Shown piece by piece: positions 16,499 to 45,471 of a stretch of 64,000 bases of DNA; position 1 is the first letter of the stretch; each line of letters begins with the position of its first letter. Source of the DNA: Pseudogymnoascus verrucosus (taxonomy: Eukaryota); the NCBI GenBank assembly GCA_001662655.1, contig KV460209.1; one strand, given 5' to 3'. The notes beneath the pieces were generated by a model. It ran no database searches and was not told the origin of the DNA. It saw only the letters and a list, made by a program, of their open reading frames with translations. The translations under genes and the position numbers were made by a program.

Positions 16499-17010
16499 TA
16501 TAATACTATATAGCATTCATTGAATTAGGCTTAGCTCAGCGCTGACACTCTATTAAGTACCCTTGCTTTGGTTATTCTGCTCAGGCCTCTCTAACGCCCT
16601 CGTAGATCCCTGACAAGGGATTTGGTTTCCGAAGGAGGGGTAAATCTCGAACTAGATACCCCGCATCTTCCCAATCCTAATCCCCATGGGGTAGACTAGT
16701 GCGAGATGGCTCGAGGGTTTTGTTAAGGTTACGTCTGTACGAACAAACATTATTCTAACCTGCACACTCTGATTAAATCGATCCCATTACTATTGACAAT
16801 TCCCTACATTGGTCAGACGTTTCTTGCCGCTTGCATCTCATCGGGGATGTTCTGTTGAATCGAACAAGACAGACAGTGTCGCTTGAAATAAACGTCCTAG
16901 CTCAACACCACCACCAGAAGCCCGGGCGCCGCAAGAAGGCCGCCCATGAGCCGCCCGCGAGCCACCGCTCTCAACAACCCCCCACACATCTTTCTCCACC
17001 GATTGCTGTA

Positions 17011-19888
17011 ATGGAGCAGCCATCACAGAAGCCCGAAACCAAGCGAAAGCACGTCACGACGGCCTGCGTTGCTTGCCGGGAGAGTAAGGTGAAGGTACAT
17101 TGCAATCCGAACACTACCCTCTTCAGCCAGGCGAATGCTCAGAACTGACACCCGCGCAAGTGTAATGGCGCAACGCCGACTTGCTCAAACTGTTTGAGCA
17201 AAGGTAAGGAATGTCGACAACAGGCCAAAGAAGACAAGCGCAAGTTAGTACTGCCTTCCTTGCTACATCTCCTAGCTAGATGTCCTGACCTCGTAGGCTC
17301 TCCCTTCGCGTCGCTATCGATCTACTTTCCAAAAGAGTCCAGCAGCTCACCCAGTTCGTCAGCGATCATGGATTGGATATCCCACCGATGCCGCTTGACG
17401 ATGACAAGACATTGTCCGGAATTCTGCGAACTCTTGGGCTACCTCAACCCATACCTGCCCAGACCAGGCCAGACGGTGAGAATGGCGCCATACAAGGATC
17501 TCCGACCACTCAGTGTCCAGACCAGAGGATTGAACCCCCAGGGGGCGCAGTTGCGCAAGGATTAAATATGCACGAGATGCCTTCTTCGGAACGCGCCGGG
17601 GAAAGTCCGCTCCCGGCAGCAGCGCGAGGCTTACTCGAGCTTGCGAACGCGGCCGGCGATATAGGCGGCATTATTAAGACCACAGCCAGCTGGGACTGGG
17701 ACATGGCGGCTGAAGCTATGTCACAAGGGCAAATGGTGCACCCAGACTACATCCCGGAAGATACGGCGCTGCAGGGCTTTTCCGGCAATGTCTCGACCCC
17801 CCAGCAGTCTGTCTCAGGCGGAGTGCCGAGCTGTCCTTCGCTAGAGGACGATGACATCAGCACCATCGAAAGCGTCGACGAGCTCGTAGACCAGCTGTCT
17901 GATCGAGTAGGAACGCTTCACATTAAAGCAGGCGGCCACATTCGCTTCTACGGATCGACATCAAACTTTAACCTCCTAGAGACGCCGGCTTCGGATGTCA
18001 ACATGAACGTCCATCGGACTATCCGGAATGATGGGACCGAGCTTTTAGATCGCCTTGGGGTCAACAAGAAGGTTCCGATCGATTTAGAAGACCATCTGAT
18101 AAATCTTTATTTTACGTGGCAGGACCCGTCGTTTCATGCCGTCGATCGCAAGATGTTCGATGAGGCGAAAGTCATATGGCGTGATAAAGGGGAAGATACG
18201 GCCTACTACTCGGAAGCTCTAAGGAATGCCATGTAAGCCAAAGATATATTCACTTTAGTAGTCGAGAGCTAAACTCGTATGGAAAGTTGCTGTCTAGGAG
18301 CAGCCTTCGACGCTCGACACCACCCGGCATTTGTCACATTCCCCAGATCCCTCGCCGATTTCTTCGCCGATAGGGCCAAGGCGCTTTTGGAAATAGAATT
18401 GGACATGCCCTGTGTCGCTACCATCCAGACCCTGATCCTCTTGAGCGCACACGACATAGGATGTGGCCGGGATTCCAAAGGATGGCTCTTTAGCGGTGCG
18501 TTGTTGGCTCGTCGATAATATGTTACTTACGCTTTAGCTGACTTCCCTTATGTTAGGTATGGCAATGCGGCTGTCATTCAACCTGGCGTTGAACCAGGAT
18601 CTCAAACCTTACATCGCGAAAGGCGTAGTAACCGCGGCCGAGGCTGATCTGCGCCGGATGGTCTTCTGGGCCGCCTTCGTAGTGGACCAGTAAGAGAACT
18701 TTTCCACACCTACAATTCAGGGCAGGATCACTGACTGCTTGGCACAGTGTCTGGAGTTTTTACCTAGGCCAGCCATTCCGAATGTCAATGAAAGGCGTTA
18801 CCCTCGAAAAGGCTGGGGCAAAGGCCTATCTGGGGTTACCTGGACAGTGGAGCCCATATGTGTCCCCGACTATGACGCAGACTTTTCCCCCTATGGTCGA
18901 TTGTGTAGAAGAAGTCTGTACATATCAGGTCCTACTATTTGAGGCTATGGCCCCTCTAAGCGATGCCTTGTAAGTTTGACGGCACCAGCAACTGTGGATG
19001 GATAGTTGCTAATCGCCTTGCCACTCTCTTTAGTTACGGCAGCGCGACAACCTCGAAGAGTGCTCTGCATGAACTCAATTCTCAGATCGTGACGAAGCTT
19101 CAAGACTGGAAGGAGAATCTTCCAGTCGAGCTACGCGTGGATCTTCACAATCACGAGACTACTTACTTGCCGCACGTCATCCTGCTTCAGTAGGCGGTCC
19201 CCCACTCCACTCATGATATGCTTTACCTCCCTAACACTCTCGATTTAGCATGCAATACTACCAAAGCGTCATCTACGCATACCGTCCCTGGATGTCAAAA
19301 AGTCAGGTCCAGCCACAGTGGGGTCCCGGCGCCGATCACGCGCGGAAAATGTGCATAGACTCCGCGAGCGCCATTGCACGCCTTCTGCACTTGTATGAAG
19401 AACGGTACACCTTCCGCAGGATCAACATCCAGGCCGTAGCAATTACCTTCTCTGCCGCGCTGCTGCTCGTCTTCGCCACTGTTATTCACCACCAGCGGGA
19501 AAGAGGAGACGAGATCTTGGCCGACCTGAGCGTGTGCTTCCGAGCGCTAGATGAGCTGGCCCCCTCATGGGACACGGCCAAGCGGGCTCGTGACTTCCTC
19601 ATCCGGTTACAGCGGCACTGGGAGCGACGGGCGAGGTCGAACAGTTTAGCCGCCGCGCGTGACGATGCCGGCTCCATGAGTTCGGGCTTTTCAGTCTCGA
19701 GGAAACGGCCACGGCCGTCCGTCCGACCCAACGATGAGCCGTCCGTCCGGCCCAACGATGAGAACAACTGGGCCGACAATGGCATGGCGGCGGCCAACTT
19801 TGGGATAGATATTGATTTCGACTGGATGCTTGCTACAAGTATGGAGGGGATGCCAGGGAACTGGGGAAATGTTTTTTCGGTGCAATAA
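17011..19888 (+). CDS. Zn(II)2Cys6 transcription factor with fungal-specific TF (middle homology) domain; multi-exon
   Basis: ACVACRESKVK/CNGATPTCSNCLSKGKEC binuclear cluster. Also HLINLYFTWQDP, GWLFSG/MAMRLSFNLALNQD and RRMVFWAAFVVD. Confidence 0.95.
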
Positions 19889-20160: not shown

Positions 20161-21319
20161 CTACAATAATCTTCCAGCATGGATCCCTCCTGTGATGAGA
20201 ATATCATCCGATGTATGATACGCACTAGCATCAGACAGGAGGTAGACCACCGGAACCTTCAGGTCCGTTCGATCGCCGATCCGGCGCATGGGCGGCTCGT
20301 TTGTCATGATGTCCGCCAGCCAGGGGTAACGATCACACAGATCAATCGTCATGTCCGTCAGCATGTACCTGTTCACCCAACATTTCCTTTGTTAGCCCTC
20401 TGGAAAAAACGATACAGAAAGTAAAAAGTGCTAGAGTGATCAAGCGTGCTTACCCAGGAGAGATAGAGTTTACGCGGATCCCGAAGGCCGCCAGCTCGAC
20501 ACCCAGTGCTTTGGCTAGCGACAATACGGCGCCCTTACTCGCACAATAGTCGCTCGTCGTCTGTCCTTTGCTGGCAACGTGCGCAGCAATGGAGGCAATG
20601 AGGACTATCGAGCCTCCACGCGGGTTAAAGTCGGTGGGCTCCTGCTTGGCCATCTGGGCGGCAGCCAGCTGCGCGGCGTAGTAAGTGCCGAGCACGTTGA
20701 TGTTCATGCACCGTGCGACGGACTCGGGGGCGCGCTTCATGAAGGGCTCATCAGGGCAAATGCCGGCGGCGGTTATTCTGTTGGGTTGGTTAGTCCTGTG
20801 AGGAAAATGGTCTTCGGAGACGGGAACCACTGCGACAGGTGGACTTACAGGCCGTCGATACGCCCGAAATCCTTTACGATCTCGTCGAAGGTGACTTGAA
20901 GACCAGCGTGATTAGTCACGTCGCTCCTGCGCAAACGAACCCGCTAGTTAGCATTATATACACCATTTAATGATACGCTGGACGAGGTTTTCGAGCTATG
21001 CACATCATGTATGGGGTCGTTCATACAGATCACAGCCTTGCAGGGAAACTTACTTGTACAGCTTGACCTTAACACCAAATTCCGTCTCTAACTTCTGAAA
21101 ATGATGATGTGGCTCGTCAAGCAGGTCGATGATGGCGACATTGCCCCCAACCTCAGCCACGGCGAAGCCAAAGGCCAGGCCAAGGCCACGGCCGCCTCCA
21201 GTGATGACAATGGTGCGGCCCTTTAGGGAAATCAGGTCATACACCGAGCGCGATAGGAACTTATCCGGGTTTCGATCGAGACCATCCTTGGCTGTCGCAG
21301 GGTTCTGTTGGTCTGCCAT
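20161..21319 (-). CDS. Short-chain dehydrogenase/reductase, polyol/keto-sugar type (arabitol/sorbose/5-ketogluconate reductase-like); 4 exons
   Basis: TGGGRGLG, an acidic end to beta-2 (AIID, NAD-type), catalytic Ser in LIASIA, YCASK and IRVNSISPG/YMLTDMT. Confidence 0.9.
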
Positions 21320-21561: not shown

Positions 21562-21640
21562 GTTGTGATGCGGGGTGATCGGGTTATGGTTTTGGACGTC
21601 AGTGGGCCGGGGGTTGTGATGCGGGGTAATCGGATTATGG
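21562..21640. promoter_or_regulatory. Duplicated 28-bp element in the divergent SDR/transketolase promoter, each copy containing GCGGGG (fits the CreA SYGGRG consensus)
   Basis: GTTGTGATGCGGGGTGATCGGGTTATGG (21562-21589) and GTTGTGATGCGGGGTAATCGGATTATGG (21613-21640). Confidence 0.55.
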
Positions 21641-21646
21641 ATTCCG
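21631..21646. promoter_or_regulatory. CGG-N10-CCG candidate Zn2Cys6 site
   Basis: CGGATTATGGATTCCG, 15/16 identical to the site at 36886. Confidence 0.65.
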
Positions 21647-21788: not shown

Positions 21789-21804
21789 CGGAATCTTGAA
21801 CCCG
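21789..21804. promoter_or_regulatory. CGG-N10-CCG candidate Zn2Cys6 site
   Basis: CGGAATCTTGAACCCG upstream of the transketolase. Confidence 0.55.
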
Positions 21805-21928: not shown

Positions 21929-24206
21929 ATGAAGATGACAAAGATGATAAACCAGATTTTGGAGAATATAGTGCCTTCGGCGCCGACGAAGAAGCCCCTG
22001 GACGCCCAGGCTACAGGCTGGAGGGAGAACCTCGACGACGACGACCGTGCCGTTATTGCGCTGCGAAACTTGATCTTCGATATCTGTAACCAGAATGGCG
22101 GCGGGCACGGCGGCTCTGCTATCGGCATGGCTGCCATTGGTGTTGCCCTGTACAAGTACACGATGCGTTACAATCCTTCGAACCCGGAGTGGTTCGACAG
22201 GGATCGCTTCGTTCTCTCTAATGGTATGAGGTTGGAATTCTTTGCATGGTCGTATGTTAACCTGAGATTTTGTAGGACATACCGCGATGTTCTTGTACGC
22301 CTTGAACCATCTCGTCGGTTATGACGCCTGGACAATGGACCAGATCAAGGGTTACGGTAGTGCGAAGATGAACGGTTACAGCACCATGTGCCACGCCCAC
22401 CCAGAAATTGAGGAACCAGCAGTGGAGATCACCACGGGACCGCTAGGCCAGGGTATCGCTAATGCCGTCGGGCTTGCTGTAGCCTCCAAGAACCTCGCAG
22501 CGCGCTTCAACCGGCCGAGCTTCGACGTCGTCAGCTCTCGTGTGTACTGCATGACTGGAGATGGCTGCCTGATGGAAGGAGTCGCGCTCGAGGCCATATC
22601 ACTAGCTGGAAGCTTGCAACTGGATAACCTCGTTTTGATATACGACAACAATCAGGTGACTTGCGACGGTCCTCTTGATTGGATCAACGTCGAGGATGTC
22701 AACGCCAAAATGCGCGCATGCGGGTGGCATGTTCTCGAGGTTGCCGACGGTTCATACGATGTCCAGGCCCTAGTTTCAGCACTCCGTTATTCAGAGACCC
22801 TGGGTGGGAAACCCGTGTTTATAAACATCCGCACCGTCATCGGGCTAGGCACCTCCAATGCAGGAACTTACAAAGCCCACCACGGCACCTTTGATGCAGA
22901 GAGCGTTGCTCTTTCGAAGCGCCTAGCTGGTCAGGATCCCTCAATGACACATCAGATCTCACCCGCCGCCCTAGAATACTTCAGAGAGAGAAAACAACGC
23001 GGCCAGAAGCTACAAGGCGAGTGGGACGACCTAATCCGCAGTTACCAGTTGGCACACCCGGACCTAGCCAAGGAGTTCCATATGAGACAAACAGGAGACA
23101 ACGGGGATGAGTGGCGGAAGATGCTCGAGACGATAGACTCGGAGGCTTTCCGGGGCCAAGCAACACGTGAGGTTAACGGTTCCATTATCGAGAGCATGTG
23201 GAAAGCCCATCCAGCCCTTTTCGGAGGTGGTGCCGATCTAGTCAACTCCAACAAGGTTCCTTATGAGGCGTCCGAGGTATTCCACCCATCCGTGGGCTAT
23301 AAAGGCCGCTATTTGCGTTACGGCATCCGTGAACATGCTATGGCAGCTATCTCCAATGGTATCGCGGCTTACAATCCGGGCACATTCCTACCTATCACAG
23401 CTACATTCTTTATGTTTTTCCTCTACGTAAGTCATCGCGCTATCGGCCGAAGCCGGCTATAAGCTATTATGATGCATTGCAATACTAATCTTTACTTTTG
23501 CCAGGCCGCTCCGGGAGTCCGCATGGGTGCCCTTTGCCATTTGCCCGTTATCCACCTCGCAACGCACGACTCCTTCGCCGAGGGCCAAAACGGTCAGACT
23601 CACCAGCCTATCGAACTGGATTCCCTGTACCGTGCTATGCCTAACCTGACATACATGCGACCGTGCGACCCTGAGGAGACCATCGGCGCCTGGCTGCTCG
23701 CGCTCTCGAAGACTACGGGTCCGTCCCTGCTTTCGCTCGGCCGTGACCCCGTCGGCCCTGTGCCGAACACAAACCGCTTAAAGGTCGCCAAGGGCGCGTA
23801 CGTCGTCAAGGAGGCCGATAATGCGCAGCTCACTCTTGCTAGCTGTGGGACCAATATGCACTATGCCGTCGCGGCGGCCGAGAGTCTGTCCGCCTCAGGG
23901 ATTCCGACGCGATTGATCAGCGCTCCGAGCTTCGATCACTTTGACGAACAAGACAGGGCTTACCGCGAGTCGGTGTTCCCGCTGGATGGCACGCCTATTG
24001 TAAGTGTCGAGGAGTATGTTGCGACGACCTGGGCGCGGTACGTGACGGCAAGCATTGGAATGACCGGGTTTGGATACTCGGCTTCGAATGCCAGTAACTA
24101 TGACAGATTCCGGTTAGATGCAAAGGGAATAGAGGCTAGGGTCAGGGATTATCTAAAGGATTTGGCTGGTGGTGATGCTAGGAGGGCAGGATGGCGTGCA
24201 ATATAG
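21929..24206 (+). CDS. Transketolase of the dihydroxyacetone-synthase-like subfamily; 3 exons (exact start ATG uncertain)
   Basis: GGGHGGSAIG, DRDRFVLSNG/H, HPEIE..EITTGPLGQG, TPP motif GDGCLMEG...YDNN, YGIREHAM and the variant loop THDSFAEGQNGQTHQPIE. Confidence 0.93.
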
Positions 24207-24613
24207 ATCTGGTGAGGGGTTTGCACCTTAGTTTGATAGTACTATCTAGTAAAAATATCTTCGATTGCGAGGATAACCTGTTCTAGTAGTGTAATAGAAG
24301 TCTCTGCACTTATTTACTCGTTAAATAATTTATTTAGTAATGCATGTAACGCTAGGTCTTAAACTATAAGACTTATAGAGGTTTCGTCGCGTTAGTTTAC
24401 TTAACAGAGGAGGTAGGGGATTAGACATAAAGGCTTTTATAAGACACGTTACTAGTATATAACAAATACTATATTAAGTTGAGCATAAAGCTCCTATCTA
24501 AGAACTATCTATATAGTTAATAGTTCCCCTAAGAGCTATAATAATGCATTAATTTACTAATTAAAGTCTTAAGTTAGTAACATAGTAGATATTATATATT
24601 ACTTACTATATAA

Positions 24614-27265
24614 CAGTGTTCCCCGGATACGTATCCGGATACTATCCGTGAACTCTACGGATAGGATACAGTATCTGTGAGAAATCTATAGATATGTATC
24701 CGGATATCCAGATATGTATCCGGATACATGAGGCTTAAGGCTATAATAGAGTATATAAAAATGGAATTGAAGCTCATAGCTATAGTGTATATATATAATA
24801 ACTCCTATTCCTCCCGCTTATCGTCTACATCACTATCATCTACCTCTAGTAAATGGCCCTAATCCTGTAAGTAAAGTAGATATCTAACTGTTAATAGCGA
24901 CAGTCTGTTCCGTTTCTTGGTAATAATATCACTACTATTGCTAAATACCTGTTCTGATGCAGCTAATGTTGTAGGGATTGCAAGATGATCTCTTGCAATC
25001 TTTGCAATAACTAGATATTAGTACTACTTTGTAGCCTAATATTTAAGTATATTAGTCTGTGGTCTAGGACAGCCCTCGTTGTTCCATCTTTTCCATTCTA
25101 GCTCTTAATGAGAGGTTGTAGTTGTAACATATAAATCATCATTAGAGTCTAGCTCTAGTTGCTCCTTAACTTCTAATTGAATCTGTTGCTCAATTCTCTC
25201 ATTAGTAAGCTGATACTCACGGCTGTTATACTAGTTATATATAGCCCTAAATTAAGCTAATACTCGATGCCTTTTAGCATTCTTAATGCTAGTTGGCCAT
25301 AGCCTCTAAAATACAGCAAGATTTATCTATAGATCACAAACTGTAGCTATAGCTAAGTGACTATAACGCTAGCTTGTTGTTAAAGTATAGTATTTGTTAA
25401 GTTTAAGCAACGTAGCTATACAAGCTAGGCTAATTGTCGTCTAGTTACCAACTGCCTAAATTGTCATTTTAAGTCTCTCAATCATCTTAAGATATTTTGG
25501 AATAACGTAGTTTAGAGTTAGGTAGGCGCTTGCTTGCATCTTTTAAGACGGGCTTAAAAAGATCTTAAACAAATCCTTAAGACTCTAAATAATTGTCTAA
25601 TCTTCTAAAGTAAGAGCAATCTCTCTTATACTTAGATCAAAAGTCTATGTAGCATATATAGCAGTTATAGGATCTTGTAAGTACTTTGTAGTAATAAGCA
25701 TATAGTACGTAGAATTCCATCGAATTAGCATGTTAAGCGTTAGCTGTTAAGGCTTAAGACTAGCTATAAGTGCTTACCTTTATAGAGCGTCGTTCCATTG
25801 CCTTCGATTCTAGAATACATATATATGCCTCCATAGCTTTGCTAGAGTTATCATAATCTCTATATTACTCTCAACTATACGCGGAATCTAAGCTACGCCT
25901 AGCTCACATCGATAATCATTAATCTCTGCTAATAGGTTGGCTTTTAAGGCTTTAAGAGTAGCTTAAACTACAAGATTGATAATATAGGCGATATAGCGTA
26001 CGTTGCCTTCCTTAACAGTAAAGGGCTATAGTTGTTAAGATGAAATTAGATAGGCTTTAGCTAGTTTCTCAAACTTAGAGAGCATTACATTATTAACTAA
26101 GGCATTGTCCTGAGTGTAAGTAAAGATAGCTCTTATAATGCCTATTCCGTCTATAACAGCTTATAACTCCTCTATAAGATATTCACCGCTATGAATAGGC
26201 TCTTTAAGATGTATTACATTAAGCAAAGCTAACTGTTACTGCCATTTATCATTAATCCAATGACTAGTAACTGCTGCAAACTAAGTATAGTTGCAAGCTG
26301 ACTAGGCGTCTGTTGTAATTGATATTCGTCCTCTACTCTTAATATGAGAATTAAGCTCTACAATTAACTGCCCTTAGTAATATGAGAATTAGCAGAGCAG
26401 CTTACAGCTAACAGTTGTAGTAGATATACTAAGTGTAGTTGGGCTTAGGAAGTGTACTAGTTAACGGTACGTATAGCTCTCTATAATACTCAAAGACAGG
26501 TTATTTAATATAATAAATTATATTAACAATTCTCTATATTTTGCTTAGTGGAGTGCTAGCTTGAGTGTAGGCTGTACTCGCTAGCGAGGCTCGAAAAAGG
26601 ATGATGAATTGCTGCTTAAAGCGCTAGATATACTGATATTGCTGTTCTTGCTATTGTGTAGCTGCTCTAAAGCAGGGTGCTTTCTCTTATAATGCAACTA
26701 TAAGTTGCTAGTTGAGTTCTAGGTTGCAAGTTAGGGTAGTAGCTTGTAGCTGCAGCCTAGCTAAAGGCATTCATACTATATAGTTAAAGGTGCCGTTTTA
26801 AGTAGTAAACGGCTGTATAGCCTTATAGAGAAGAGTGATGTTTTAGTAATAGGCAAACTATGCTGTAGTGGCGGCTATAAGTAGACTAGAGTTCTTAGTG
26901 TAGACAGCGGCAGAATAGGGGTATTTAAGGGCGGGAGATTTAATTCTTGATAGCCTATAGGGGCTTCAATATTAGTGGGAGCATCTAACAAAGGCGAGTC
27001 GCTTATTTTGTCTACAGTAACAAAGTTATAGTAAAGCAACTCTCAACTCTTCCTATCGACGGTAATGGTAAGCGTAACGATGAATTTTCTATTCTTAGCT
27101 ATTCTTAGCTATTCTTAGCTATTCTTAGCTATTCTTAGCAGGTATCTGGATATGTATCTATAGATACTCATAGTATCCGGATACTCGTTGAATTCTTAAG
27201 GATACAAGTATCTGCATACAAGTATCTAGATACCCTAGATACTTAGGTATCCGTGGGGATCACTG
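24614..27265 (-). mobile_element. hAT DNA transposon, full length, RIP-inactivated
   Basis: 8-bp TSD CTATATAA (24606-24613 and 27266-27273). Imperfect TIRs CAGTGTTCCCCGGATAC / GTATCCGTGGGGATCACTG, with subterminal GTATCCGGA repeats. Minus-strand relic motifs TTDA(W)S, RWNST and IAKIARDHLAIP...SEQVFS...IITKKRNRL. Confidence 0.93.
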
Positions 27266-27273
27266 CTATATAA

Positions 27274-28520: not shown

Positions 28521-28605
28521 GAGTAGGCAATTCAATTCAATTCAATATACTAGTCTATTATACTACGTAGTGGTTGGTAGTTAGGCTAGAGCATATATAA
28601 TCTAG

Positions 28606-30020: not shown

Positions 30021-30036
30021 CGGAATGAGATCTCCG
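30021..30036. promoter_or_regulatory. CGG-N10-CCG candidate Zn2Cys6 site
   Basis: CGGAATGAGATCTCCG in the MDR/BVMO divergent promoter. Confidence 0.6.
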
Positions 30037-30154: not shown

Positions 30155-30170
30155 CGGGATCTAGTTTCCG
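30155..30170. promoter_or_regulatory. CGG-N10-CCG candidate Zn2Cys6 site
   Basis: CGGGATCTAGTTTCCG in the MDR/BVMO divergent promoter. Confidence 0.6.
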
Positions 30171-30425: not shown

Positions 30426-32257
30426 ATGTCGGCACACGGTCTAGATGCTATCATAATCGGCGCAGGGCCGGCGGGCATTGCTATGGCCTATCGCCTGAAG
30501 CATGAGCTCAATTTTCACGACTTTCTCATATATGAGAAGCTCAATGGCGTAGGTGGAACGTGGAGGCTAAACAGCTATCCCGGATGGTATGTATAAATCC
30601 TAATGAGCTGTATATTCCGCAGTTAGATGCTAAGAGCTGACGAGACACTTCAATTTTGCTAGTGGCTGTGATCTTCAATCACATCTCTATTCCTTCAGCT
30701 TCAACCCAAATCCGAATTGGTCAAAGCAGCTGTGCGAGCAGCCTGAGATCCTCCAATGTAAGTTCTATCAAGCTTGTCGTTACCCAATGAACATGGCATT
30801 GATTATGAGGCTTCGAAACAAGACTGACCTATGTTAAAATAGACATGGAAGATACGGTTGACAAATTCAACATCCGCAAGCATGTCAAGTCGTCAATCGA
30901 GTGTACCGGTGCAAAATGGCACAGCGATATTGCTAAGTGGGAGGTTTTCGTCAAGGACCTCGAATCGGGCCTTGAGTACTCGCGCTTTGCGTCCATCTTC
31001 GTCTCAGCTGTGGGGGCTATCTCATTCCCGCGCAACGTCAAGTTCCCAGGCATGGAGAACTTCAAGGGTGATATGTTCCACACCGCACACTGGGATCATT
31101 CTGTTTCATACAAGAACAAGCGCGTCGGCGTTATTGGAAATGGCTGTAGCGCTGCCCAGGTTATTCCTGCCGTTGCCCAGAAGGCTGGCTTCGTGAAGCA
31201 GTACGCTCGCAGCGGGCAGTGGTTCCATGCCCGGCCAAACAGGCTCAACACTGATTTTGACAAATTTGTACTCCGCTGGGTTCCGCTCTGGCAGCGGCTG
31301 CTCCGCCTGAGTATCTTCCTCGAGGCCGACGAGGAGACGACGACCTACTTCCCAACCCCTAAGGGCCTCAAGGCTCGAATCGCGAAGGAGAAGGAGTCTA
31401 AGGAATATATCCAGTCCAAGGCGCCAGAGAAGTACTGGCAACACATCATTCCCAAGTTTCCGCTTGGATGCAAGCGTCGTATCTTTGACCCTGGATACCT
31501 TGACGCCCTCTGCCTGCCTAACGTTGAGGTGCTTCCCGAAGGTATCAAGGAGTTCACTGAGACGGGTATTATTAGCTCTTCGGGAATCCAGGACGACTAC
31601 GACATTATCGTCCTCGCCACCGGATTCCAAGTTTCTGAGTTCCTGACTCCCATGGAAATATTCGGCGCAGATGGGCGCTCGCTGCAGCAGCAGTGGCAGG
31701 AATGTCGTGGCGCCCAAGCATACCTGGGCACCTACGTCCACAACTTCCCCAATCTCGCCATCATCTTCGGGCCCAATACCTTCCCTGCCAACAACTCGGC
31801 CCTGTTCGCGTGCGAGACCCAGGTAGACTACGCCATAAAATCGCTCTTCACGCCGCTGATCGATCGCTGGGCCGACGTCCTCGAGGTCAAGCAGACTGTT
31901 GAAGACTACACGACTAATGCCATCCACGAGCAGCTAAACAACACCGTCTTCGCGGGAGGTTGCTCCAACTGGTACATCGGTAAACACGGCCGAAATGCTG
32001 CCTCCTGGCCCGGACTGGCGCGGTCGTTCTGGTTCAGTACCTACTTCCCTGACTGGTCGGCCTTCAACCTCGCAGGTGGAAGCAGGTTTTGGCCACTCTA
32101 CGCTGCTCGACGCTGGCTGACTACCATGAAGCCGCTTACAAAAGTCTTGGTTTCAATAAGCTTTGCGGCGGCAGCCATCATTTATGGAGGTTATGGAGCA
32201 AGGCTCCCGGCACTTGCTTCCCTGCGTAGCCTAGCCGCGAGGGTGAAGGCGTTTTAA
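30426..32257 (+). CDS. Type I Baeyer-Villiger/flavin monooxygenase; 3 exons
   Basis: IIGAGPAG, GGTWRLNSYPGCGCD, fingerprint FKGDMFHTAHWD (FxGxxxHxxxWD), second GNGCSA, GCKRR and ATGF. Hydrophobic C-terminal segment. Confidence 0.92.
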
Positions 32258-34378: not shown

Positions 34379-34556
34379 ATTCAAGATGGATGACTGATAG
34401 TGTCCCCCACCTGTTACAAAGTGCTATCTTTCAACGGGCGGCTTGGGTACAGCGTGGGTTTCCCCTGCCCGGTTTATGGGGCAAGAACAGTGTAACCGGG
34501 AGGGCAGAGCTGTCATATCCTTTCCTATTGGAGTAATTAAACCTTAATGCAGCTAA

Positions 34557-34609
34557 CGGATTCAATATCCCGATCGGCGAAGATCTAACGTCCCGGGATT
34601 CGAGAGCCG
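34557..34609. promoter_or_regulatory. Two CGG-N10-CCG candidate Zn2Cys6 sites
   Basis: CGGATTCAATATCCCG (34557-34572) and CGGGATTCGAGAGCCG (34594-34609) in the PFK2/ALDH divergent promoter. Confidence 0.55.
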
Positions 34610-34870
34610 GCGGGGTGAGTGGGGCTGGGAGTCGGATGGGAACAACGTGCGGGGTTCGGACGTGAGCTCCGGGTGGAGATGGGAAACTTGGATTCGTCCC
34701 ACTTCCCCATACTCTAAGATCTCCGAAATTCCAAACCTCCAAAAGCTATAGACGCAACTTTTGTCTTTGAGCATGGCATAATCCTCAAACTTTCCTATTG
34801 CATTGAACTCTAGCTGCTGTAACCTAACACTCTAAATCTCACTTTTTTTATATATCTCGATTTTCAAACA

Positions 34871-36634
34871 ATGTCTTACCACGAACAACATCTACAGAGC
34901 GTAAGTAGGCCCATGCTCATTCAAGCAACCTGGGCGTGCGGATAGCTAATCCAAGCCCTTTGTGACTACAGTTGAAGGACAGGAGCCTGTTCTGCGGAGA
35001 TGCATTCATCGACGGACAATGGGTCTCCAAAGAAAAGAAGTTCGATGTCTACGGTCCGTACTCCCGTAGGCTAGCCATCATCTTTCACCATACTCATGTT
35101 GAATAGAGCCCTCATCAGTCGCCGTCTTGGGCCAGGTATCGGACTGCAATCTCGAGGATTTTCAGAAAGCCGTCCAGAGTGCGAATGAGGCACAGCGTAA
35201 CTTCTATGAAAGTACAACGGGAACAGCAAGGGGAGCACTGTTGAGGAAATGGAACAACTTGATCCTGGAGAACCAGGATGATCGTAAGTATATACAACTT
35301 TGACTGAGCTAAGATACATCCTAACATGACTTACAATAGTTGCGACGATCCTTTCGCTCGAAAATGGCAAGACTTTGAGCGAGGCCAAGGGTGAAGTCAT
35401 CTACGCCGCTAGTTTCATATCATGGTTTGCCGAAGAAGCCACTCGATCCTACGGCACTACTATTCCATCATCTACTTCTCATGCAACTCTCATGACCGTC
35501 CGCGAGCCAGTCGGCGTGTGCGGAATCATCACACCCTGGAACTTCCCTGCAGCCATGATCACTAGGAAAGTAGGTCCGGCTCTCGCTGCCGGCTGCTCCG
35601 TCGTCATTAAGCCACCCAGCGAGACACCGTACACTTGCATTGCCCTCACCAAGCTGGCCGTCAAAGCTGGTCTGCCTCCCGCAATAATCCAAGTGTGTCC
35701 TACCAAGGACAGGCAGGCTGCTACCGAGCTAGCCACGAACCCTCTAGTGAAGAAACTCAGCTTCACAGGCTCGACAAACGTGGGCAAGATGTTAGCCAAG
35801 CTGGCGACTGGTACCTTGAAGAAAGTCAGCCTCGAGTTGGGCGGTAACGCTCCATTCATCGTTTTTGACGATGCGAATCTCGATCTGGCTGTGGAGGGTG
35901 CCATGTTCTGCAAGTTCCGTTGCACGGGGCAGACATGTGTTTGGTAGGACTATCTTCCCCCCCACTTTCTATACATGTGTATACTACGCACTACACTCTG
36001 CGGGCAAGTGGACTATGTACATAATTCTAACGGTGACTTTAGCGCGAATCGGATTTATGTACAGAAAGGTGTGGCCAAGGCTTTCACTGAGAAATTAGTG
36101 GAGGCTGTAAAAGCGCTTAAGGTGGGACCGGGTTTGGATTCAGCTACAACCCAAGGCCCATTAGTAAACAAAAATGCTGTTGAAAAGGTCAAGGAGCACG
36201 TAGAGGACGCAGTCTCCAAGGGCGCGAGTATTGAGGTTGGCGGCCAGTCATCCCTATCCTCCGGGTTCTTCTACGATCCCACTGTGCTCTCCGGAGTGAC
36301 CCCAGATATGATGGTCAGCCGAGAGGAAACGTTCGGCCCGCTCGCTCCAATATTTCAATTTGAGACCGAGAAAGAGGTCTTGCAACTCGCTAATGACAGC
36401 GAATTTGGGCTGGCCGGATATTTCTTTTCTCAGGACATCGCGCGAGCAATGCGAGTAGCACAGAAGTTGGAAGTTGGAATGGTAGGCGTGAATACTGGAA
36501 AGATTAGCGCGGCCGAGGCGCCCTTTGGGGGCATTAAGGAGAGCGGCTACGGCAAGGAGGGCAGCCTTTATGGTCTTGCAGAGTACCAAAATATCAAGAG
36601 CATCACCATTGGCAACCAGAATGCTGGGCTCTGA
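34871..36634 (+). CDS. Succinate-semialdehyde-dehydrogenase-like aldehyde dehydrogenase; 5 exons
   Basis: ITPWNFPAAMITRK, SFTGSTNVG, LELGGNAP, KFRCTGQTCV/CANR (catalytic Cys), EETFGP and PFGGIKESGYGKEGS. Confidence 0.93.
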
Positions 36635-36885: not shown

Positions 36886-36901
36886 CGGATTATGGCTTCC
36901 G
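36886..36901. promoter_or_regulatory. CGG-N10-CCG candidate Zn2Cys6 site
   Basis: CGGATTATGGCTTCCG upstream of the tartrate dehydrogenase. Confidence 0.65.
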
Positions 36902-37046: not shown

Positions 37047-38288
37047 ATGTCGTTAAGGCAGAACGGTGTTCGCACGCACAAGATTGCTTCTATCCCCGGG
37101 GACGGTATAGGGGTAGAAGTAATAGAACAGACGATCAAGGTTCTCCGGACCATAGAGGCACTGTTCAGCTCATTCACTTTAGAAATCGACACTCTGGACT
37201 GGAGCTCGAAGCGATACTTAGAGCAAGGCAAATACATTCCCGCAGATGGCTGGCAGAGATTAAGTGTCAACGATGCCATCTTGTTTGGTGCTGTTGGATC
37301 ACCTGGTATGTGCTCGGTCAAGAAGGGAGGATATTTTCAATCCAGAGGTCACATATCTAACATTTTTTCTTAGATGTGCCCGATGATATCTCCCTGTGGA
37401 ACCTGATTCTGCCGCTTCGAAAAAAAGTGATAACTCTTAAGACAATTCATATCAGACCAGCAGCTGACAGTAGCTCAGTTGAATCAATACATCAACCTTC
37501 GTCCAATCCGGATTCTGCCTGGGATTTCAGCTCCGCTAAAGGGCTGCGCAGATAGCGACCTAGACTGGATCATTGTCCGGGAGAATAGCGAGGGTGAATA
37601 CGCTGGCCAGGGCGGCATCACGCACGATGATACCCCGAACACCATTGCGAACGAAGTCGCCGTCTTCACCAGGGCTGGTATCGAACGCACCATGCACTTC
37701 GCATTCAAAGTCGCTCGAGACAGACCCCGAAAGAAACTAACCATGGTAACTAAGAGCAACGCCCAGAGATACGGCATGGTCTTGTGGGATAAGGTCTTTT
37801 ATGAGGTTGCAAAGGAGTATCCGGATGTAGAGACAGACAAGATGCTTGTAGATGCCATGACAGTGCGGATGGTGCTGAAGCCCAAGTCGCTCGACACCAT
37901 TGTAGCTACCAACCTCCACGGAGACATTCTGTCGGATTTGGCCGCCGCACTGGCTGGCAGCATTGGGGTTGCTGCTTCCAGCAGTCTAGACCCAACGAGG
38001 CAGAACCCCAGCTTGTTCGAGCCGATCCACGGAAGTGCTCCAGACATAGCAGGTCAGGGTATTGCTAATCCCGTCGGGGCGTTTTGGAGCGCTGCCGAAA
38101 TGCTCCGCTGGCTTGGAGAAGGCGCGGCGGCGGACCTCTTGATGAAGGCCATTGAGACTGTTACAGCCTCTGGTGCTAAGACAAGGGATTTGGGGGGTGC
38201 ATATGATCTTGCTCAAGTCACTGAAGCAGTCATTGTGGAGATGAAGAGGTCATTCAGCAATGCCAGGAAAATCGTGTCTAAAATCTAA
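37047..38288 (+). CDS. Tartrate dehydrogenase/decarboxylase (D-malate dehydrogenase; TtuC/DmlA branch of the LeuB/ICDH family); 3 exons
   Basis: IPGDGIG, ILFGAVGSP/DVPDDISLW, NQYINLRP, RENSEGEYAG, TKSNAQ, NLHGDILSDLAAALAGSIG and FEPIHGSAPDIAG. Confidence 0.9.
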
Positions 38289-38749: not shown

Positions 38750-38765
38750 CGGAAACTGAATTCCG
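38750..38765. promoter_or_regulatory. CGG-N10-CCG candidate Zn2Cys6 site
   Basis: CGGAAACTGAATTCCG upstream of the aldo-keto reductase. Confidence 0.65.
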
Positions 38766-38863
38766 GCATCGTTTCATGAAGGACTAGGTATAGGTAGTAG
38801 TAATATGGACGCAGCCGTAACGCAGTTATGAGAAGCACGACACCTTGTACCCACTTCGCAAAT

Positions 38864-39905
38864 ATGGCACCCTCATACTTCAAACTGAACACAGGAGCCA
38901 ACATCCCTGCCCTAGGCCTCGGCACCTGGCAATCTGGACCAGGAGAGGTCAAAAATGCCGTGTCGTACGCGCTCCGTACCGGCTACAAGCTCATCGACTG
39001 CGCTTTCTGTTACGGCAATGAGTCTGAGGTTGGGGAAGGTATCAAGGAGGCTCTGGACTCAGGTGCCGTAAAGAGAGAAGATTTCTTCGTCACTAGCAAG
39101 ATGTGGTGTACCTTCTCGTCCAGGGTAGAGGAAAACCTCGACATGAGCTTGAAGGCTTTAGGGCTCGACTATGTCGATCTCTATCTTATACATTGGCCAG
39201 TGGCCATGAATCCTCACGGTATGGATGTACAGCTCAGTTGTATGGCCATTTAGGCTGACATGAGAACTTGTTGGTTGTAGGCAACGATATCAAATTTCCC
39301 ACGCATCCAGATGGCTCCCGTGATCTTGACTTGTCATGGTCACACATCCAGACCTGGAAACAGATGGAGGATCTAGTCGGAACGGAAAAGGTGAAGGCGA
39401 TAGGGGTGTGCAACTACAGTCTGAAGTATCTAGAGGAGTTGGTTTCCCATGCCACCGTGGTCCCTGCGGTTAATCAGATTGAGAACCACCCCTACCTACC
39501 ACAAACCGAGGTGGTGTCTTTCTGCAATTCTAGAGGCATCCAAATCATGGCATACTCACCTCTTGGGAGCGCCGGATCCCCTCTGATGAAAGAGTCACTT
39601 GTGCAGGCTATTGCTGCGAAGCATGGACTATCTCCCGCCACTGTTCTCCTAAGCTATCACAGTCTGTCCTCCCCTGCTCCTATCGTCTTATTATATTTAA
39701 TGCTGATACATGATCCTTAGACAAACGCGGCAGCATTGTAATCGCTAAGTCTGTACAGGAGAGTCGAATTGACCAGAATAATAAAATCATTGACCTAGAT
39801 GCAGACGACATGGAAGCTCTAGAAAACATCTACAAGTCAGCTGGGATCAGGAGATATGTATATCCGGCCTTCAATGTAGACTTTGGCTTTCCAGATAAAT
39901 CTTAG
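38864..39905 (+). CDS. Aldo-keto reductase resembling Trichoderma GAR1-type NADPH D-galacturonate/D-glucuronate reductase; 3 exons
   Basis: GLGTWQS, GYKLIDCAFCYGNE, LIHWP, AVNQIENHP, IAKSV and C-terminus RYVYPAFNVDFGFPDKS*. The AKR call is firm; the GAR1-subfamily match is from memory. Confidence 0.85.
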
Positions 39906-40200
39906 ATAGATATTGATAGCGTGGTTACATAGTACATAGCTGACTCTGTCGGATGTCCAAATACTGATCAGCAATGGATTCAAATGAGATCTTGTTACTG
40001 CCTGCTTCTTAGAGATATGTGTGTATTCCATGAGATGGGCTAGTATAAGTAAGGATACAGTGCTATATTGTGTAACAGAGAAAACTTGGCCTGCCAAAAG
40101 TTCAAACCCCTCAGATAACTCAACTCTATCCGCTATATATGACATATAGTTGTTTGTGAGCCTAAAGAATACAGCGAATGTCTGTCTAGACCTAGCAACT

Positions 40201-41946
40201 TCATACATGCTGTATCTGGCCCATAAGGGTCTGCTCAGCCGAAGCGGCTGCAATCCTCATGAAATCCTTCTCTTCCTGCCCGCTTTTATCCCCAAACATG
40301 ATGTCCATCTGTTCTAGAGTCTTGCCCTTTGTCTCCGGGACGAGAAGCAACGCCCAGAGACCGGAAAGACCACAGAAAAAGGCGAAAAAAATATAGGTCC
40401 CGTAACCAATAGTTTCAAGCATGGGAGGGGTGGCGATTCCAACGGTGAAGTTGGAAAGCCAGTTAACGCACACAGAAAGAGCCACACCCTTCGCGCGCTT
40501 AGAATTTGGGAACACCTCCGGGGGCAGGCTCCACCCCAAGGGCGAGTAGGAAACGCCATAAACCATAATGAAGCAGAAGGCCATGGCGACTGCTGCCCAG
40601 CCAGCAGCCGGGTTTGCTGACCAGTTCTTTGAGTAGACTCCAGCAATAGCAGCAATGACGACGTAGCAGATGCAGGAGCCAAACCCTCCCACGATGGCAA
40701 GTGGCCTTCGTCCCACCTTATCGATGACAACGAAGCAGACTCCGACAGCGACAAGCTGCAATACATTAAAGACTCCCGATAGAGTAAGCGCCATCTCGGG
40801 CGACTGCCCTATAGATTGGAAAAGGGTGGGTGCGTAGTAGATGAAAGCGTTGATGCCAGAAAACTGCTGGAAGAAGCAGACTCCGCAGCCCACCACGGTT
40901 CTGCGCCACATCTTGCGGTCGAAAAGATCAAGCCACGAGAGCACCTCAAGCTTGAAAGAGCCAGTTCCCGGGTGTCTTTGTGCCAAGACCATCTTATTGA
41001 ATTCGACCTCGGCGACGATGCCCTTGAACTCCTTTTGGACGCGGCTGTCGGAAGGGGGCAGACGCCGCAGCTTTGATAGACTGGTTAGGCATTCTTCGTT
41101 GCGGCCGACGAGAGCGAGCCATCGGGGCGAGTAAGGGAAGAGGTGGATAGCAACACCTAGAAATGTGGCGCAGAGCATTTGCAATCCCAGGGGGAGCCTA
41201 AACGAGACTTCGCTGGAGATGAATCGTGTACCGTAGGTGATCCAGAATGCAATGACGACGCCAGACACAATGGAGATGGACTCGAGCACGAGAAGTGTTC
41301 CTCGTAGATTTGGCGGAGAGATCTCAGAGATGTATAGCGGCGCGCCCTGTGTTATATCCCCATTAGCTTTCCGTACAAAAGCACGCATTTTCAAAACAAC
41401 AACTTTACAGAGTACATGTTTACATACCATTGCAAGCGTACCAACTCCAATACCTCCAATAGCTCTTCCAACAACCAGGGCACTGTAGCTCTGAGCCGCG
41501 GTCTGGATGATGGCGCCGATGTCGAATATAATAACCACAACGGTCAGGGCCCACTTACGCGAGATCCTGTCAGCCAGGTACGGCATGAAGATGCAGCCTA
41601 TAAAAGCGCCGAGCAGCAGCATGGCAGTCATGAGGCTAGTGCCAAACGCAGTCTTCGTCTGGGGGAAGGCGTCTTGGAACTGTTCCATAACGTTGATAAT
41701 CGAGATGACGCCCTGGTCGTAGCCGAAGGAGAAGCCGCCCAGCGAGGCGAGGAAGGCGGCACCGAAGACGTATGAGTTGCCAATCAGCCCACGGATGCCG
41801 TTTGGCCCATACGCCAAGTTCTCGGCGAAGATATCATCAGCCTCCAGGTCGGTCATGGTCTTGTTCTCGGAGCGTTCCACATGCTCGCTTTGGACCCTTT
41901 CTTCAGGCGTCACAGTATCCGAGTCGAGCTTCTTGTCTATGGACAT
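40201..41946 (-). CDS. Sugar porter (MFS) family transporter; one in-frame intron at about 41349-41427
   Basis: LGGFSFGYDQG, ADRISRK, PLYISEISP, PYSPRWL, QQFSGINAFIYY, DKVGRR and VPETKGKTLE. Confidence 0.95.
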   Translation of the reverse strand: MSIDKKLDSDTVTPEERVQSEHVERSENKTMTDLEADDIFAENLAYGPNGIRGLIGNSYVFGAAFLASLGGFSFGYDQGVISIINVMEQFQDAFPQTKTAFGTSLMTAMLLLGAFIGCIFMPYLADRISRKWALTVVVIIFDIGAIIQTAAQSYSALVVGRAIGGIGVGTLAMVCKHVLCKVVVLKMRAFVRKANGDITQGAPLYISEISPPNLRGTLLVLESISIVSGVVIAFWITYGTRFISSEVSFRLPLGLQMLCATFLGVAIHLFPYSPRWLALVGRNEECLTSLSKLRRLPPSDSRVQKEFKGIVAEVEFNKMVLAQRHPGTGSFKLEVLSWLDLFDRKMWRRTVVGCGVCFFQQFSGINAFIYYAPTLFQSIGQSPEMALTLSGVFNVLQLVAVGVCFVVIDKVGRRPLAIVGGFGSCICYVVIAAIAGVYSKNWSANPAAGWAAVAMAFCFIMVYGVSYSPLGWSLPPEVFPNSKRAKGVALSVCVNWLSNFTVGIATPPMLETIGYGTYIFFAFFCGLSGLWALLLVPETKGKTLEQMDIMFGDKSGQEEKDFMRIAAASAEQTLMGQIQHV

Positions 41947-42479
41947 GGCGGACAGAGATTAGATACCTATTTGGCTCTGTTGATAAGTTGTTTTTTTCAT
42001 GCATATATAGAAGTAAGGAAGGTGTGGCAGGTAGAAGATGATAAAGTTGTCGTGGCAGATAAGTGAGACTATCAATTCTTATATCATTTTGAGACTGTGG
42101 GGTCCCCATAGTTGGGGAAGGCCGCTTAGATTGAATGAGACTAAAACAGTCGTGAGTTCGGATATCTCCACTCGGGTCGTAAGGGGGCTGATCATGGAAA
42201 CCAAATTCCGAGATGCGGCCCATCAGAAACCGGGCCTATTCGTATGCCAACGCGGGGTGGCCAATATTAACTAGACTAAAAAGGAATCTAGTTGGCCCCA
42301 CCTTCCCCGGAATTTGCAACGGCTCGCTATCAAGAGCCGGCACACTCACAATACTAACTAATCGTCATGACCAACTTTTCGCTTCGCTCAAGGTTGGAGG
42401 AAGCCATGTGCGTGGTCGAAGAATGGAGGGTAAGCGATATGCATAGTTTAAACCTAAATTTTATAAGTCATTTTGCATA

Positions 42480-45466: not shown

Positions 45467-45471
45467 AGGGC

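What the first reader, a model, noticed from the sequence alone, without database searches (positions are those of the whole stretch)
16616..42210. A shared CGG-N10-CCG palindrome marks every promoter of the cluster
Seen: eight exact CGG-N10-CCG sites with AT-rich spacers, at 21631 and 21789 (SDR/TK), 30021 and 30155 (MDR/BVMO), 34557 and 34594 (PFK2/ALDH), 36886 (TDH) and 38750 (AKR). One-mismatch sites lie at 42195 (TGGAAACCAAATTCCG, transporter) and 16616 (AGGGATTTGGTTTCCG, upstream of the TF). Sites 21631 and 36886 are 15/16 identical. At uniform base composition six fixed bases occur about once per 4 kb, so the roughly 3 kb of promoter DNA should hold about one site. Established: Zn2Cys6 dimers bind spaced CGG triplets. 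Inference: this is the binding site of the cluster TF, it defines a regulon that includes the BVMO and PFK-2, and the TF may autoregulate.
Basis: partly seen in the sequence, partly recalled or inferred. Interest (0 to 1): 0.78.

Follow-up and report, generated by a model that had tools for sequence, protein, structure and literature searches.

The report
Shared switch for unknown fungal pathway
A real 16-base DNA switch sits in front of the genes of a ten-gene fungal cluster; the switch type is ordinary, but the enzymes it seems to control point to an undescribed way of breaking down a ring-shaped sugar alcohol or sugar acid.

Summary
The motif is real. Seven promoter regions (3,775 bp) hold 8 CGG-N10-CCG sites against 0.68 expected, the best of 1,344 palindromes tested. 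The fuller consensus is CGGRWT-N4-AWYCCG. It recurs in all three divergent promoters of a rearranged orthologous cluster from a distant fungus (L007). The order BVMO-MDR-x-x-TF is kept across three fungal classes, so the cluster's Zn2Cys6 factor is the likely binder (inferred; binding untested). A CGG-Nx-CCG site is an ordinary Gal4-type element.

The cluster is the more interesting part. Its aldo-keto reductase, polyol dehydrogenase and transporter have close relatives in myo-inositol-oxygenase/glucuronate clusters. It lacks MIOX but has a conserved Baeyer-Villiger monooxygenase, a transketolase with Asp-to-Asn at the substrate-hydroxyl site, an SSADH-like dehydrogenase, a tartrate/D-malate dehydrogenase and a kinase-only PFK-2. 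Best reading: a non-myo cyclitol is oxidised, ring-opened by the BVMO, converted to a 5-keto-hexonate, cleaved by transketolase, and finished through tartrate or D-malate. The lower half is about 50% likely and cyclitol entry about 30%. No substrate was tested.

The parts
16616..16631 (.). One-mismatch site (AGG...CCG), 380 bp upstream of TF
   Evidence: (matrix score 12.9)
17011..19888 (+). Zn2Cys6 + Fungal_trans transcription factor, about 820 aa, multi-exon; candidate regulator
20161..21319 (-). Short-chain dehydrogenase/reductase (about 90% identical to the L007 orthologue in two exons)
21631..21646 (.). Exact site, SDR/TK divergent promoter
21789..21804 (.). Exact site, SDR/TK divergent promoter
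21929..24206 (+). Transketolase; Asn replaces the Asp of the GEDGPTHQP motif; phosphate-site residues kept
24300..28550 (.). AT-rich block with RIP signature inside the cluster (not part of the regulon)
28606..29858 (-). Zn-dependent polyol dehydrogenase (MDR); best NCBIfam hit L-idonate 5-dehydrogenase, below cut-off; same subfamily as MIOX-cluster MDRs
30021..30036 (.). Exact site (weaker), MDR/BVMO divergent promoter
30155..30170 (.). Exact site, MDR/BVMO divergent promoter
30426..32257 (+). Type I Baeyer-Villiger monooxygenase, 556 aa
32936..34378 (-). 6-phosphofructo-2-kinase; kinase motifs present, phosphatase RHG motif replaced by SGG
34557..34572 (.). Exact site, PFK2/ALDH divergent promoter
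34594..34609 (.). Exact site (weaker), PFK2/ALDH divergent promoter
34871..36634 (+). Aldehyde dehydrogenase, best hit succinate-semialdehyde dehydrogenase
36886..36901 (.). Exact site, 146 bp upstream of TDH
37047..38288 (+). Tartrate/D-malate dehydrogenase (decarboxylating) family
38750..38765 (.). Exact site, 99 bp upstream of AKR
38864..39905 (+). Aldo-keto reductase; closest paralog in G000 lies 2 kb from the only MIOX gene
40201..41946 (-). Sugar-porter MFS transporter; a close paralog lies in the MIOX cluster
42195..42210 (.). One-mismatch site (TGG...CCG), 249 bp upstream of the transporter
   Evidence: (score 14.2)

Best explanation
The 16-bp palindrome CGGRWT-N4-AWYCCG is the binding site of the Zn2Cys6 factor encoded at 17011-19888. 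A homodimer binds one or two sites 100-470 bp upstream of each gene and co-induces a ten-gene catabolic cluster when its substrate is present (inferred, about 0.8). The pathway most likely runs through a C6 sugar acid. Proposed order, every step inferred: transporter imports a cyclitol other than myo-inositol; SDR or MDR oxidises it to an inosose; the BVMO inserts oxygen and the hemiacetal lactone opens to a hexuronate, doing the job of MIOX; AKR reduces this to an aldonate; MDR or SDR makes the 5-keto-aldonate; transketolase moves C5-C6 to a sugar phosphate and leaves a C4 semialdehyde; the SSADH-like enzyme makes tartrate or D-malate; TDH decarboxylates it to a C3 acid. Kinase-only PFK-2 raises fructose-2,6-bisphosphate so that glycolysis consumes the transketolase product and regenerates triose-phosphate acceptor. 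The Asp-to-Asn change in transketolase would suit a donor lacking that hydroxyl, as from a deoxy-inositol (quercitol), giving D-malate and then pyruvate. Odds: lower half about 0.5, cyclitol entry by BVMO about 0.3, quercitol specifically about 0.1.
For: Motif: enrichment and family-wise control; genome background; matrix recovers the two mismatch sites; replication in 3 of 3 divergent promoters of L007; 14 of 20 hand-picked strict matches elsewhere in G000 fall inside ORFs of 150 aa or more, whereas the 8 cluster sites lie between annotated start codons. TF link: six cysteines, the Gal4 K18-equivalent lysine and a coiled-coil-like stretch (role of K18 recalled); DNA-binding domain nearly invariant in 40 of 71 homologues with a complete domain; BVMO/MDR/TF order by accession in Diplogelasinospora (KAK3942519/18/15), Coniochaeta (OIW32331/32/35), Aaosphaeria (KAF2012995/96/99) and by locus tag in Sporothrix, Scytalidium, Cosmosporella. 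Pathway: MIOX in 7 of 29 MDR-relative loci of 8 kb or more, with an AKR 52-69% identical to the cluster AKR in 7 of the 28 non-cluster loci; AKR paralog (72%) 2 kb from G000's only MIOX; transporter paralog in the same MIOX cluster; cluster MDRs group with MIOX-linked MDRs (100/100 against two G000 outgroups); BVMO fingerprints and fold; MDR and BVMO share a contig in 19 of 34 named MDR records; TK plus semialdehyde dehydrogenase is the proposed 5-keto-D-gluconate to tartrate route (PMC11066805, PMC12016104).
Against: No binding, expression or enzyme data. In L007 the best matrix match (16.6) is inside the SDR coding sequence, one promoter site (6144) scores under 8, and TF, ALDH and transporter were not in the 12.7 kb retrieved. 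Footprinting in four 90-95% relatives was uninformative (P about 0.14 for one run; table cut). TF and MDR share a contig in only 11 of 34 named records (lists truncated); in Penicillium argentinense they are 469 locus numbers apart. The MDR is not A. niger GluE itself (termini differ) and scores far below the L-idonate 5-DH cut-off (137 vs 469 bits). The transketolase keeps the three phosphate-site residues whose mutation improved 5-keto-gluconate activity in E. coli TK. The best transporter paralog by bit score is at C45, not in the MIOX cluster. The SDR could not be assigned to any subfamily. No BVMO acting on an inosose turned up in the literature search (listing only).
Confidence: 0.7

Rival explanations
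1. Same regulon, acyclic substrate. A hexuronate, aldonate or ketose is taken to a 5-keto-aldonate or ketose. The BVMO, not transketolase, cleaves next to the keto group, releasing glycolate or formaldehyde. Transketolase then uses hydroxypyruvate from TDH, or fixes formaldehyde like dihydroxyacetone synthase.
For: MDR and BVMO are the most tightly linked pair and share a promoter in the window and in L007, which suits consecutive steps. The Asp-to-Asn change resembles dihydroxyacetone synthases (recalled, not tested). AKR, MDR and transporter relatives come from the uronate route.
Against: No precedent known to me for a type I BVMO on an acyclic sugar acid (recall; one search found none). A kinase-only PFK-2 would inhibit fructose-1,6-bisphosphatase, which formaldehyde assimilation needs (established biochemistry, recalled). 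No dihydroxyacetone kinase in the cluster.
Confidence: 0.25
2. The motif is functional but is read by another Zn2Cys6 factor, for example the paralog at G000:C75, which sits in its own BVMO + SSADH-like cluster.
For: The C75 paralog has a similar DNA-binding domain and linker. Its cluster has motif-like sites upstream of the BVMO (score 10.1), the next gene (16.0) and the ALDH (9.0).
Against: The window's TF keeps a fixed position beside SDR-TK-MDR-BVMO across three classes. The C75 sites fit equally well with shared ancestry of two factors that each read their own cluster.
Confidence: 0.12
3. The cluster detoxifies or builds a non-carbohydrate compound (secondary metabolism), and the sugar-enzyme likenesses are only ancestral.
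For: The sister TF/BVMO/ALDH module at C75 lies next to an acyl-CoA ligase and an A-T-TE NRPS-like gene.
Against: No PKS, NRPS or terpene synthase among the window ORFs scanned. Sugar porter, transketolase, PFK-2, two polyol-type dehydrogenases and an AKR from the MIOX lineage all point to carbohydrate catabolism.
Confidence: 0.08
4. Chance matches or promoter duplication, without function.
For: Six fixed bases are common (15 in the window); two sites are 15/16 identical; two sites are weak in leave-one-out.
Against: Family-wise 0 of 300; replication in L007 with rearranged gene pairs; the flanks of 21631 and 36886 are unrelated.
Confidence: 0.02

Closest known systems
Zn2Cys6 inverted-repeat sites: Gal4 CGG-N11-CCG, Ppr1 CGG-N6-CCG (PMC10250231, passages); Put3 and Tea1 CGG-N10-CCG (recalled, not confirmed in any paper read)
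   Same: Inverted CGG half-sites at one fixed spacing, in promoters of co-clustered metabolic genes, next to a Zn2Cys6 gene.
   Different: Spacer positions 4-6 and 11-13 are also constrained (RWT/AWY). The factor is an uncharacterised Pezizomycotina lineage; likeness to Put3 is confined to the Zn cluster (E 0.02).
Aspergillus niger D-glucuronate pathway, GaaA/GluC/GluD/GluE(IddA)/GluF(KgrA) (PMC5306355, PMC5814732, PMC13158570) and the fungal MIOX clusters seen here
   Same: AKR, MDR and transporter are close relatives of genes in MIOX/glucuronate clusters; divergent gene pairs with shared promoters.
   Different: No MIOX, no GluD-like 2-hydroxyacid dehydrogenase, no GluF/KduD-like SDR. Instead BVMO, transketolase, SSADH-like ALDH, TDH and PFK-2. 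The MDR is a separate clade from GluE.
Grape L-tartrate route: L-idonate to 5-keto-D-gluconate to L-threo-tetruronate to L-tartrate (PMC11066805, PMC6827314, PMC12016104)
   Same: An L-idonate-dehydrogenase-like MDR, a transketolase and an SSADH-like enzyme are the proposed catalysts of these steps.
   Different: Here they are clustered with a tartrate/D-malate dehydrogenase, so the direction is catabolic. In plants the TK and semialdehyde dehydrogenase steps are still putative. The actual C4 acid here is not established.
Bacterial cyclohexanol / cyclohexane-1,2-diol degradation (cyclohexanone and 2-hydroxycyclohexanone monooxygenases; recalled)
   Same: Alcohol dehydrogenase + type I BVMO + semialdehyde dehydrogenase; with a 2-hydroxy ketone the lactone opens without a lactonase, and the cluster has no lactonase.
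   Different: Only 21-26% identity to solved BVMOs; polyhydroxylated ring proposed; product routed through AKR and transketolase rather than beta-oxidation.

Membership tests
Zn2Cys6 inverted-CGG element | Two inverted CGG triplets at one fixed spacing, enriched in target promoters | tested here: met
   N10 only: 8 vs 0.68; other spacers 0-3
Zn2Cys6 inverted-CGG element | Conserved in orthologous promoters | tested here: met
   3 of 3 divergent promoters in L007; only one distant locus available; close-relative footprint uninformative
Zn2Cys6 inverted-CGG element | Cognate factor with six Cys, recognition Lys, linker and dimerisation helix | tested here: met
Zn2Cys6 inverted-CGG element | Direct binding and TF-dependent induction | not testable with these tools
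   needs EMSA/DAP-seq and a deletion strain
Put3 / Tea1 / Cha4 (N10 binders) | Orthology to the yeast factor | tested here: inconclusive
Type I Baeyer-Villiger monooxygenase | FxGxxxHxxxW and GxWxxxxYPGxxxD fingerprints, BVMO fold | tested here: met
   (orthologues)
A. niger D-glucuronate pathway | GluE/IddA orthologue | tested here: not met
   GluE termini read from primers match none of 120 homologues; same subfamily only; full GluE sequence not compared
A. niger D-glucuronate pathway | GluD- and GluF-type reductases in the cluster | tested here: not met
   no 2-hydroxyacid dehydrogenase among scanned ORFs; the SDR is 30-48% identical to the KduD-like SDRs of MIOX clusters
MIOX inositol cluster | myo-Inositol oxygenase gene | tested here: not met
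   single MIOX in G000 is on C22
Grape-type tartrate route | TK cleaves 5-keto-D-gluconate; ALDH oxidises tartaric semialdehyde | not testable with these tools
   families fit; TK keeps the phosphate-site residues and has Asp-to-Asn
Tartrate/D-malate dehydrogenase (TIGR02089) | Best family and closest solved structure | tested here: met
   E 1e-109 on one exon, below the whole-protein cut-off because partial; 3FLK top hit
Bifunctional PFK-2/FBPase-2 | Catalytic His of the RHG phosphatase motif | tested here: not met
   SGGES in the window, CGGES in L007; RHG motif recalled; reads as kinase-only

The most novel reading that the evidence does not exclude
The cluster encodes a MIOX-independent fungal pathway for a plant cyclitol (quercitol, an O-methyl inositol, or scyllo-/chiro-inositol). 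A Baeyer-Villiger monooxygenase opens the inosose ring to a hexuronate, and a dedicated transketolase and semialdehyde dehydrogenase turn a 5-keto-hexonate into tartrate or D-malate. It was assembled from three older modules (TF+BVMO+ALDH; transporter+AKR+MDR; TK+PFK-2) and brought under one operator. It would supply natural enzymes for the two still-putative steps of tartrate formation.
Probability: 0.3. Interest if true: 0.8.

Novelty: new variant of a known kind. Interest (0 to 1): 0.55.

Why it matters
The operator alone is a new member of a familiar class. Its value is that it defines a ten-gene regulon, including the unexpected BVMO and PFK-2, and gives a ready reporter for finding the inducer. 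The cluster core is conserved across many soil, root and wood fungi and was not found described in the searches run. If the pathway reading holds, it adds an oxygenative ring-opening route for cyclitols in fungi. It would also give natural candidates for the transketolase and semialdehyde-dehydrogenase steps that remain putative in grape tartrate synthesis and are sought for bio-based L-tartaric acid.

Tried and rejected
1) Cluster MDR as A. niger GluE: rejected, termini differ. 2) Footprinting with four related genomes: gene order kept, but 646 rows of the substitution table were cut. For run X6 the 40 rows shown cover 34388-34852, with none in site 34557 and one at the centre of 34594; P about 0.14, so no evidence either way. 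3) No RNA holder listed. 4) Bacterial or archaeal relatives of the BVMO: two pattern scans found none; weak, pattern-limited. 5) The rest of the L007 contig (21.6 kb) could not be obtained. 6) Wider regulon: 20 hand-picked strict matches out of the 45 non-cluster sites listed (80 in the genome); 14 lie in ORFs, and neighbours of the rest show no common theme. An apparent tannase link shrank to 1 of 6 tannase genes with a site about 1 kb upstream. 7) ESM Atlas gave only generic names for transporter and SDR. 8) Literature: no paper held all of tartrate dehydrogenase + transketolase + fungi + gene cluster; Baeyer-Villiger/inosose/ring cleavage showed nothing relevant in the 25 of 123 listed; quercitol catabolism gave one tree review; CGG-N10-CCG gave one unrelated paper; Tea1/Cha4/Put3 spacing was not confirmed; no paper for the transketolase Asp477/dihydroxyacetone synthase point. 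9) Four look-ups of earlier findings returned nothing.
Full report
OBSERVATION. The window is ascomycete DNA (G000:C4:62001-126000, genome 30.17 Mb). The closest named proteins are from Pseudogymnoascus (MDR 98% identical). The placement is what matters. In the seven promoter regions (3,775 bp) there are 8 against 0.68 in dinucleotide shuffles (0 of 2000 reach 8), other spacers give 0-3, it is the best of 1,344 inverted-triplet patterns, and 0 of 300 shuffles yield any pattern as strong. The symmetrised consensus is CGGRWT-N4-AWYCCG. CGGR-N8-YCCG occurs 1,001 times in the genome; 7 are in these promoters and none in the remaining 60 kb. A worst-case bound that puts all 1,001 into an assumed 5 Mb of promoters still gives P about 1e-5. 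A matrix from the 8 exact sites finds the two one-mismatch sites as the only other window hits at score 12 or more. Sites 30021 and 34594 are weak in leave-one-out.

INDEPENDENT TEST. One metagenome scan with an MDR alignment returned 80 loci, of which one (L007, MDR 57% identical) is an orthologous cluster. It holds BVMO/MDR, TK/SDR and PFK2/TDH as divergent pairs, plus AKR. PFK2 is paired with TDH there, not ALDH. Each of the three spacers has one CGGR-N8-YCCG (1550, 6144, 9949; 3 vs 0.16 expected, 2 of 5000 shuffles), and the TK/SDR spacer has a second CGG-N10-CCG. Against this: the best matrix match in L007 is in coding sequence, site 6144 scores under 8, and TF, ALDH and transporter were not in the 12.7 kb retrieved. 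As a control, the paralogous SDR/MFS/TF/PFK2/TK cluster at G000:C82, whose regulator is a Fungal_trans_2 protein, has no such site between PFK2 and TK. Four 90-95% relatives keep the PFK2-ALDH-TDH-AKR order, but the footprint test had no power.

THE REGULATOR. The gene at 17011-19888 encodes a Zn2Cys6 + Fungal_trans protein. Its Zn cluster aligns with Gal4 and Lac9 and keeps the lysine at the Gal4 K18 position (role recalled). Domain and linker are nearly invariant among the 40 of 71 homologues with a complete domain. BVMO, MDR and TF keep the window's spacing by accession in Diplogelasinospora, Coniochaeta and Aaosphaeria, by locus tag in Sporothrix, Scytalidium and Cosmosporella, and in three other Pseudogymnoascus isolates. 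I left out unnamed records, the Pseudogymnoascus record, Aspergillus and Penicillium rows and P0113-P0120, and the hit lists are truncated, so misses are not absences. In Penicillium argentinense MDR and TF are 469 locus numbers apart. Gal4-type factors bind inverted CGG at strict spacing (PMC10250231, passages). That Put3 and Tea1 use N10 is recalled; no paper read confirmed it. The closest TF paralog in G000 (C75) lies beside the closest BVMO paralog (about 50%) and an ALDH 63-74% identical, with motif-like sites upstream of three of its genes. This suggests the specificity is ancestral to the lineage, and also leaves cross-binding open.

WHAT THE REGULON ENCODES. Open frames and family scans give SDR, transketolase, Zn-dependent polyol dehydrogenase (best hit L-idonate 5-dehydrogenase, far below cut-off), type I BVMO, PFK-2, SSADH-like ALDH, tartrate/D-malate dehydrogenase, AKR and a sugar porter. 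The cluster looks like a mosaic. First, an inositol/uronate module. Relatives of the MDR sit with MIOX in 7 of 29 loci of 8 kb or more, with a Gfo/Idh/MocA gene in 8 and a KduD-like SDR in 17. In a 37-row tree the cluster MDRs (94/91) fall with the MIOX-linked MDRs (100/100 against two G000 outgroups; one short row dropped; some rows include in-frame introns). The AKR's closest paralog (72%) is 2 kb from G000's single MIOX. The transporter has a paralog in the same MIOX cluster (57% in one exon, about 40% overall), although the best by score is at C45. In N. crassa the IddA orthologue NCU01905 and the uronate reductase NCU01906 have adjacent numbers (PMC13158570, section 3.9 and passages). The MDR is not GluE itself. 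Second, the TF+BVMO+ALDH module seen at C75. Third, the TK+PFK-2 pairing seen at C82.

MECHANISM (all steps inferred). AKR then MDR is the uronate to aldonate to 5-keto-aldonate sequence of the A. niger glucuronate pathway (PMC5306355 parts 2-3 of 5, PMC5814732 part 2 of 3). There GluF reduces the keto acid to gluconate. Here that SDR type is absent, and transketolase, an SSADH-like enzyme and TDH are present. TK plus a semialdehyde dehydrogenase is the proposed route from 5-keto-D-gluconate to tartrate (PMC11066805, PMC12016104, PMC6827314, passages), and TDH-family enzymes take (R)-2-hydroxy C4 diacids such as D-malate and L- or meso-tartrate (recalled). MIOX is missing and a BVMO is the most conserved partner of the MDR (66-92% identity). 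Baeyer-Villiger oxidation of an alpha-hydroxy cyclic ketone opens the ring to an aldehyde-acid without a lactonase (bacterial 2-hydroxycyclohexanone precedent, recalled); on an inosose that product is a hexuronate. PFK-2 keeps its kinase motifs and lacks the phosphatase histidine in both window and L007, which fits pulling transketolase products through glycolysis. The transketolase has Asn for the Asp of GEDGPTHQP in both window and L007, while the four other G000 transketolases keep Asp. That Asp binds the 2-hydroxyl of the aldehyde substrate (recalled). A donor lacking or capping this hydroxyl, as from quercitol or an O-methyl inositol (abundant tree cyclitols, PMC8919412 passages), would give malic semialdehyde, D-malate and pyruvate. 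The same change is recalled from formaldehyde-fixing dihydroxyacetone synthases, which feeds the acyclic rival. The enzyme also keeps the three phosphate-site residues whose mutation improved 5-keto-gluconate activity in E. coli TK. Odds: TF-site-regulon about 0.8; keto-hexonate/TK/ALDH/TDH lower half about 0.5; BVMO ring-opening of a cyclitol about 0.3.

NOVELTY. The element is a new member of a known class. The cluster is a fungal catabolic cluster with a pathway-specific regulator, a known kind, but its enzyme set was not found described. The searches were made, limited to open-licence PMC and bioRxiv; one search was seen as a listing of 25 of 123 papers. No supplements were read; supplementary transcriptome tables of PMC13158570 or the A. 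niger papers could hold induction data for homologues. Earlier scan findings gave nothing. Verdict: observation confirmed, regulatory reading supported indirectly, interest 0.55, carried mainly by the unassigned pathway.

Noticed in passing
L100:3301 to L101:5007 (G000:C22 about 143-155 kb): MIOX cluster containing a D-2-hydroxyacid dehydrogenase (GluD-like family), sugar porter, Gfo/Idh/MocA, a cytochrome-b2-type FMN dehydrogenase, AKR and MIOX. The FMN alpha-hydroxyacid dehydrogenase is a candidate for the L-gulonate to 2-keto-L-gulonate step, reported as unidentified in fungi (PMC5814732; PMC13158570, 2026).
   Followed up: partly
L008:11335-13305 (-); also L009, L011, L015, L021, L023, L025, L033, L058 and others: A 657-aa open frame with no Pfam hit, conserved (about 40-75%) next to the MDR/SDR/AKR/MIOX genes in 13 metagenome loci; not seen in the G000 C22 stretch fetched.
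   Followed up: partly
L109-L110 (G000:C75 about 50-66 kb): Sister module: AMP-binding enzyme, closest BVMO paralog, a gene that looks metallo-beta-lactamase-like by eye (no Pfam hit on exon pieces), closest TF paralog, SSADH-like ALDH and an A-T-TE NRPS-like gene, with motif-like sites at L109:1761, L109:4411 and L110:1528.
   Followed up: partly
L087-L088 (G000:C82), L090-L092 and L094 (G000:C5): Three further transketolase clusters: one with divergent PFK-2, SDR, two transporters and a Fungal_trans_2 regulator; one with dihydroxyacetone kinase, SDR, Gfo/Idh/MocA and transporter; one with AKR and MDR. PFK-2 paired with transketolase recurs.
   Followed up: no
window 23556-23603 region; L007 about 4100-4150: Transketolase motif reads GQNG(Q/P)THQP instead of GEDGPTHQP in both orthologues; the four other G000 transketolases keep the Asp.
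   Followed up: partly
window 15300-16400, 24300-28550, 42450-46000: AT-rich blocks with RIP-type dinucleotide indices flank the cluster, and one 4-kb block splits it between TK and MDR.
   Followed up: no
L011:8336, L015:3720, L023:8339: A CGGR-N8-YCCG lies about 470-490 bp upstream of the Gfo/Idh/MocA match in three closely related MIOX-type loci, but not in more distant ones; may reflect relatedness only.
   Followed up: no
L128:2501 (G000:C13:507637): A strong match (score 14.9) about 1 kb upstream of a tannase/feruloyl esterase gene; 1 of 6 such genes has one.
   Followed up: partly
P0160 (Fusarium oxysporum record): A homologue of the cluster TF is annotated fused to a cytochrome-b2-type FMN dehydrogenase, probably two adjacent genes.
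   Followed up: no
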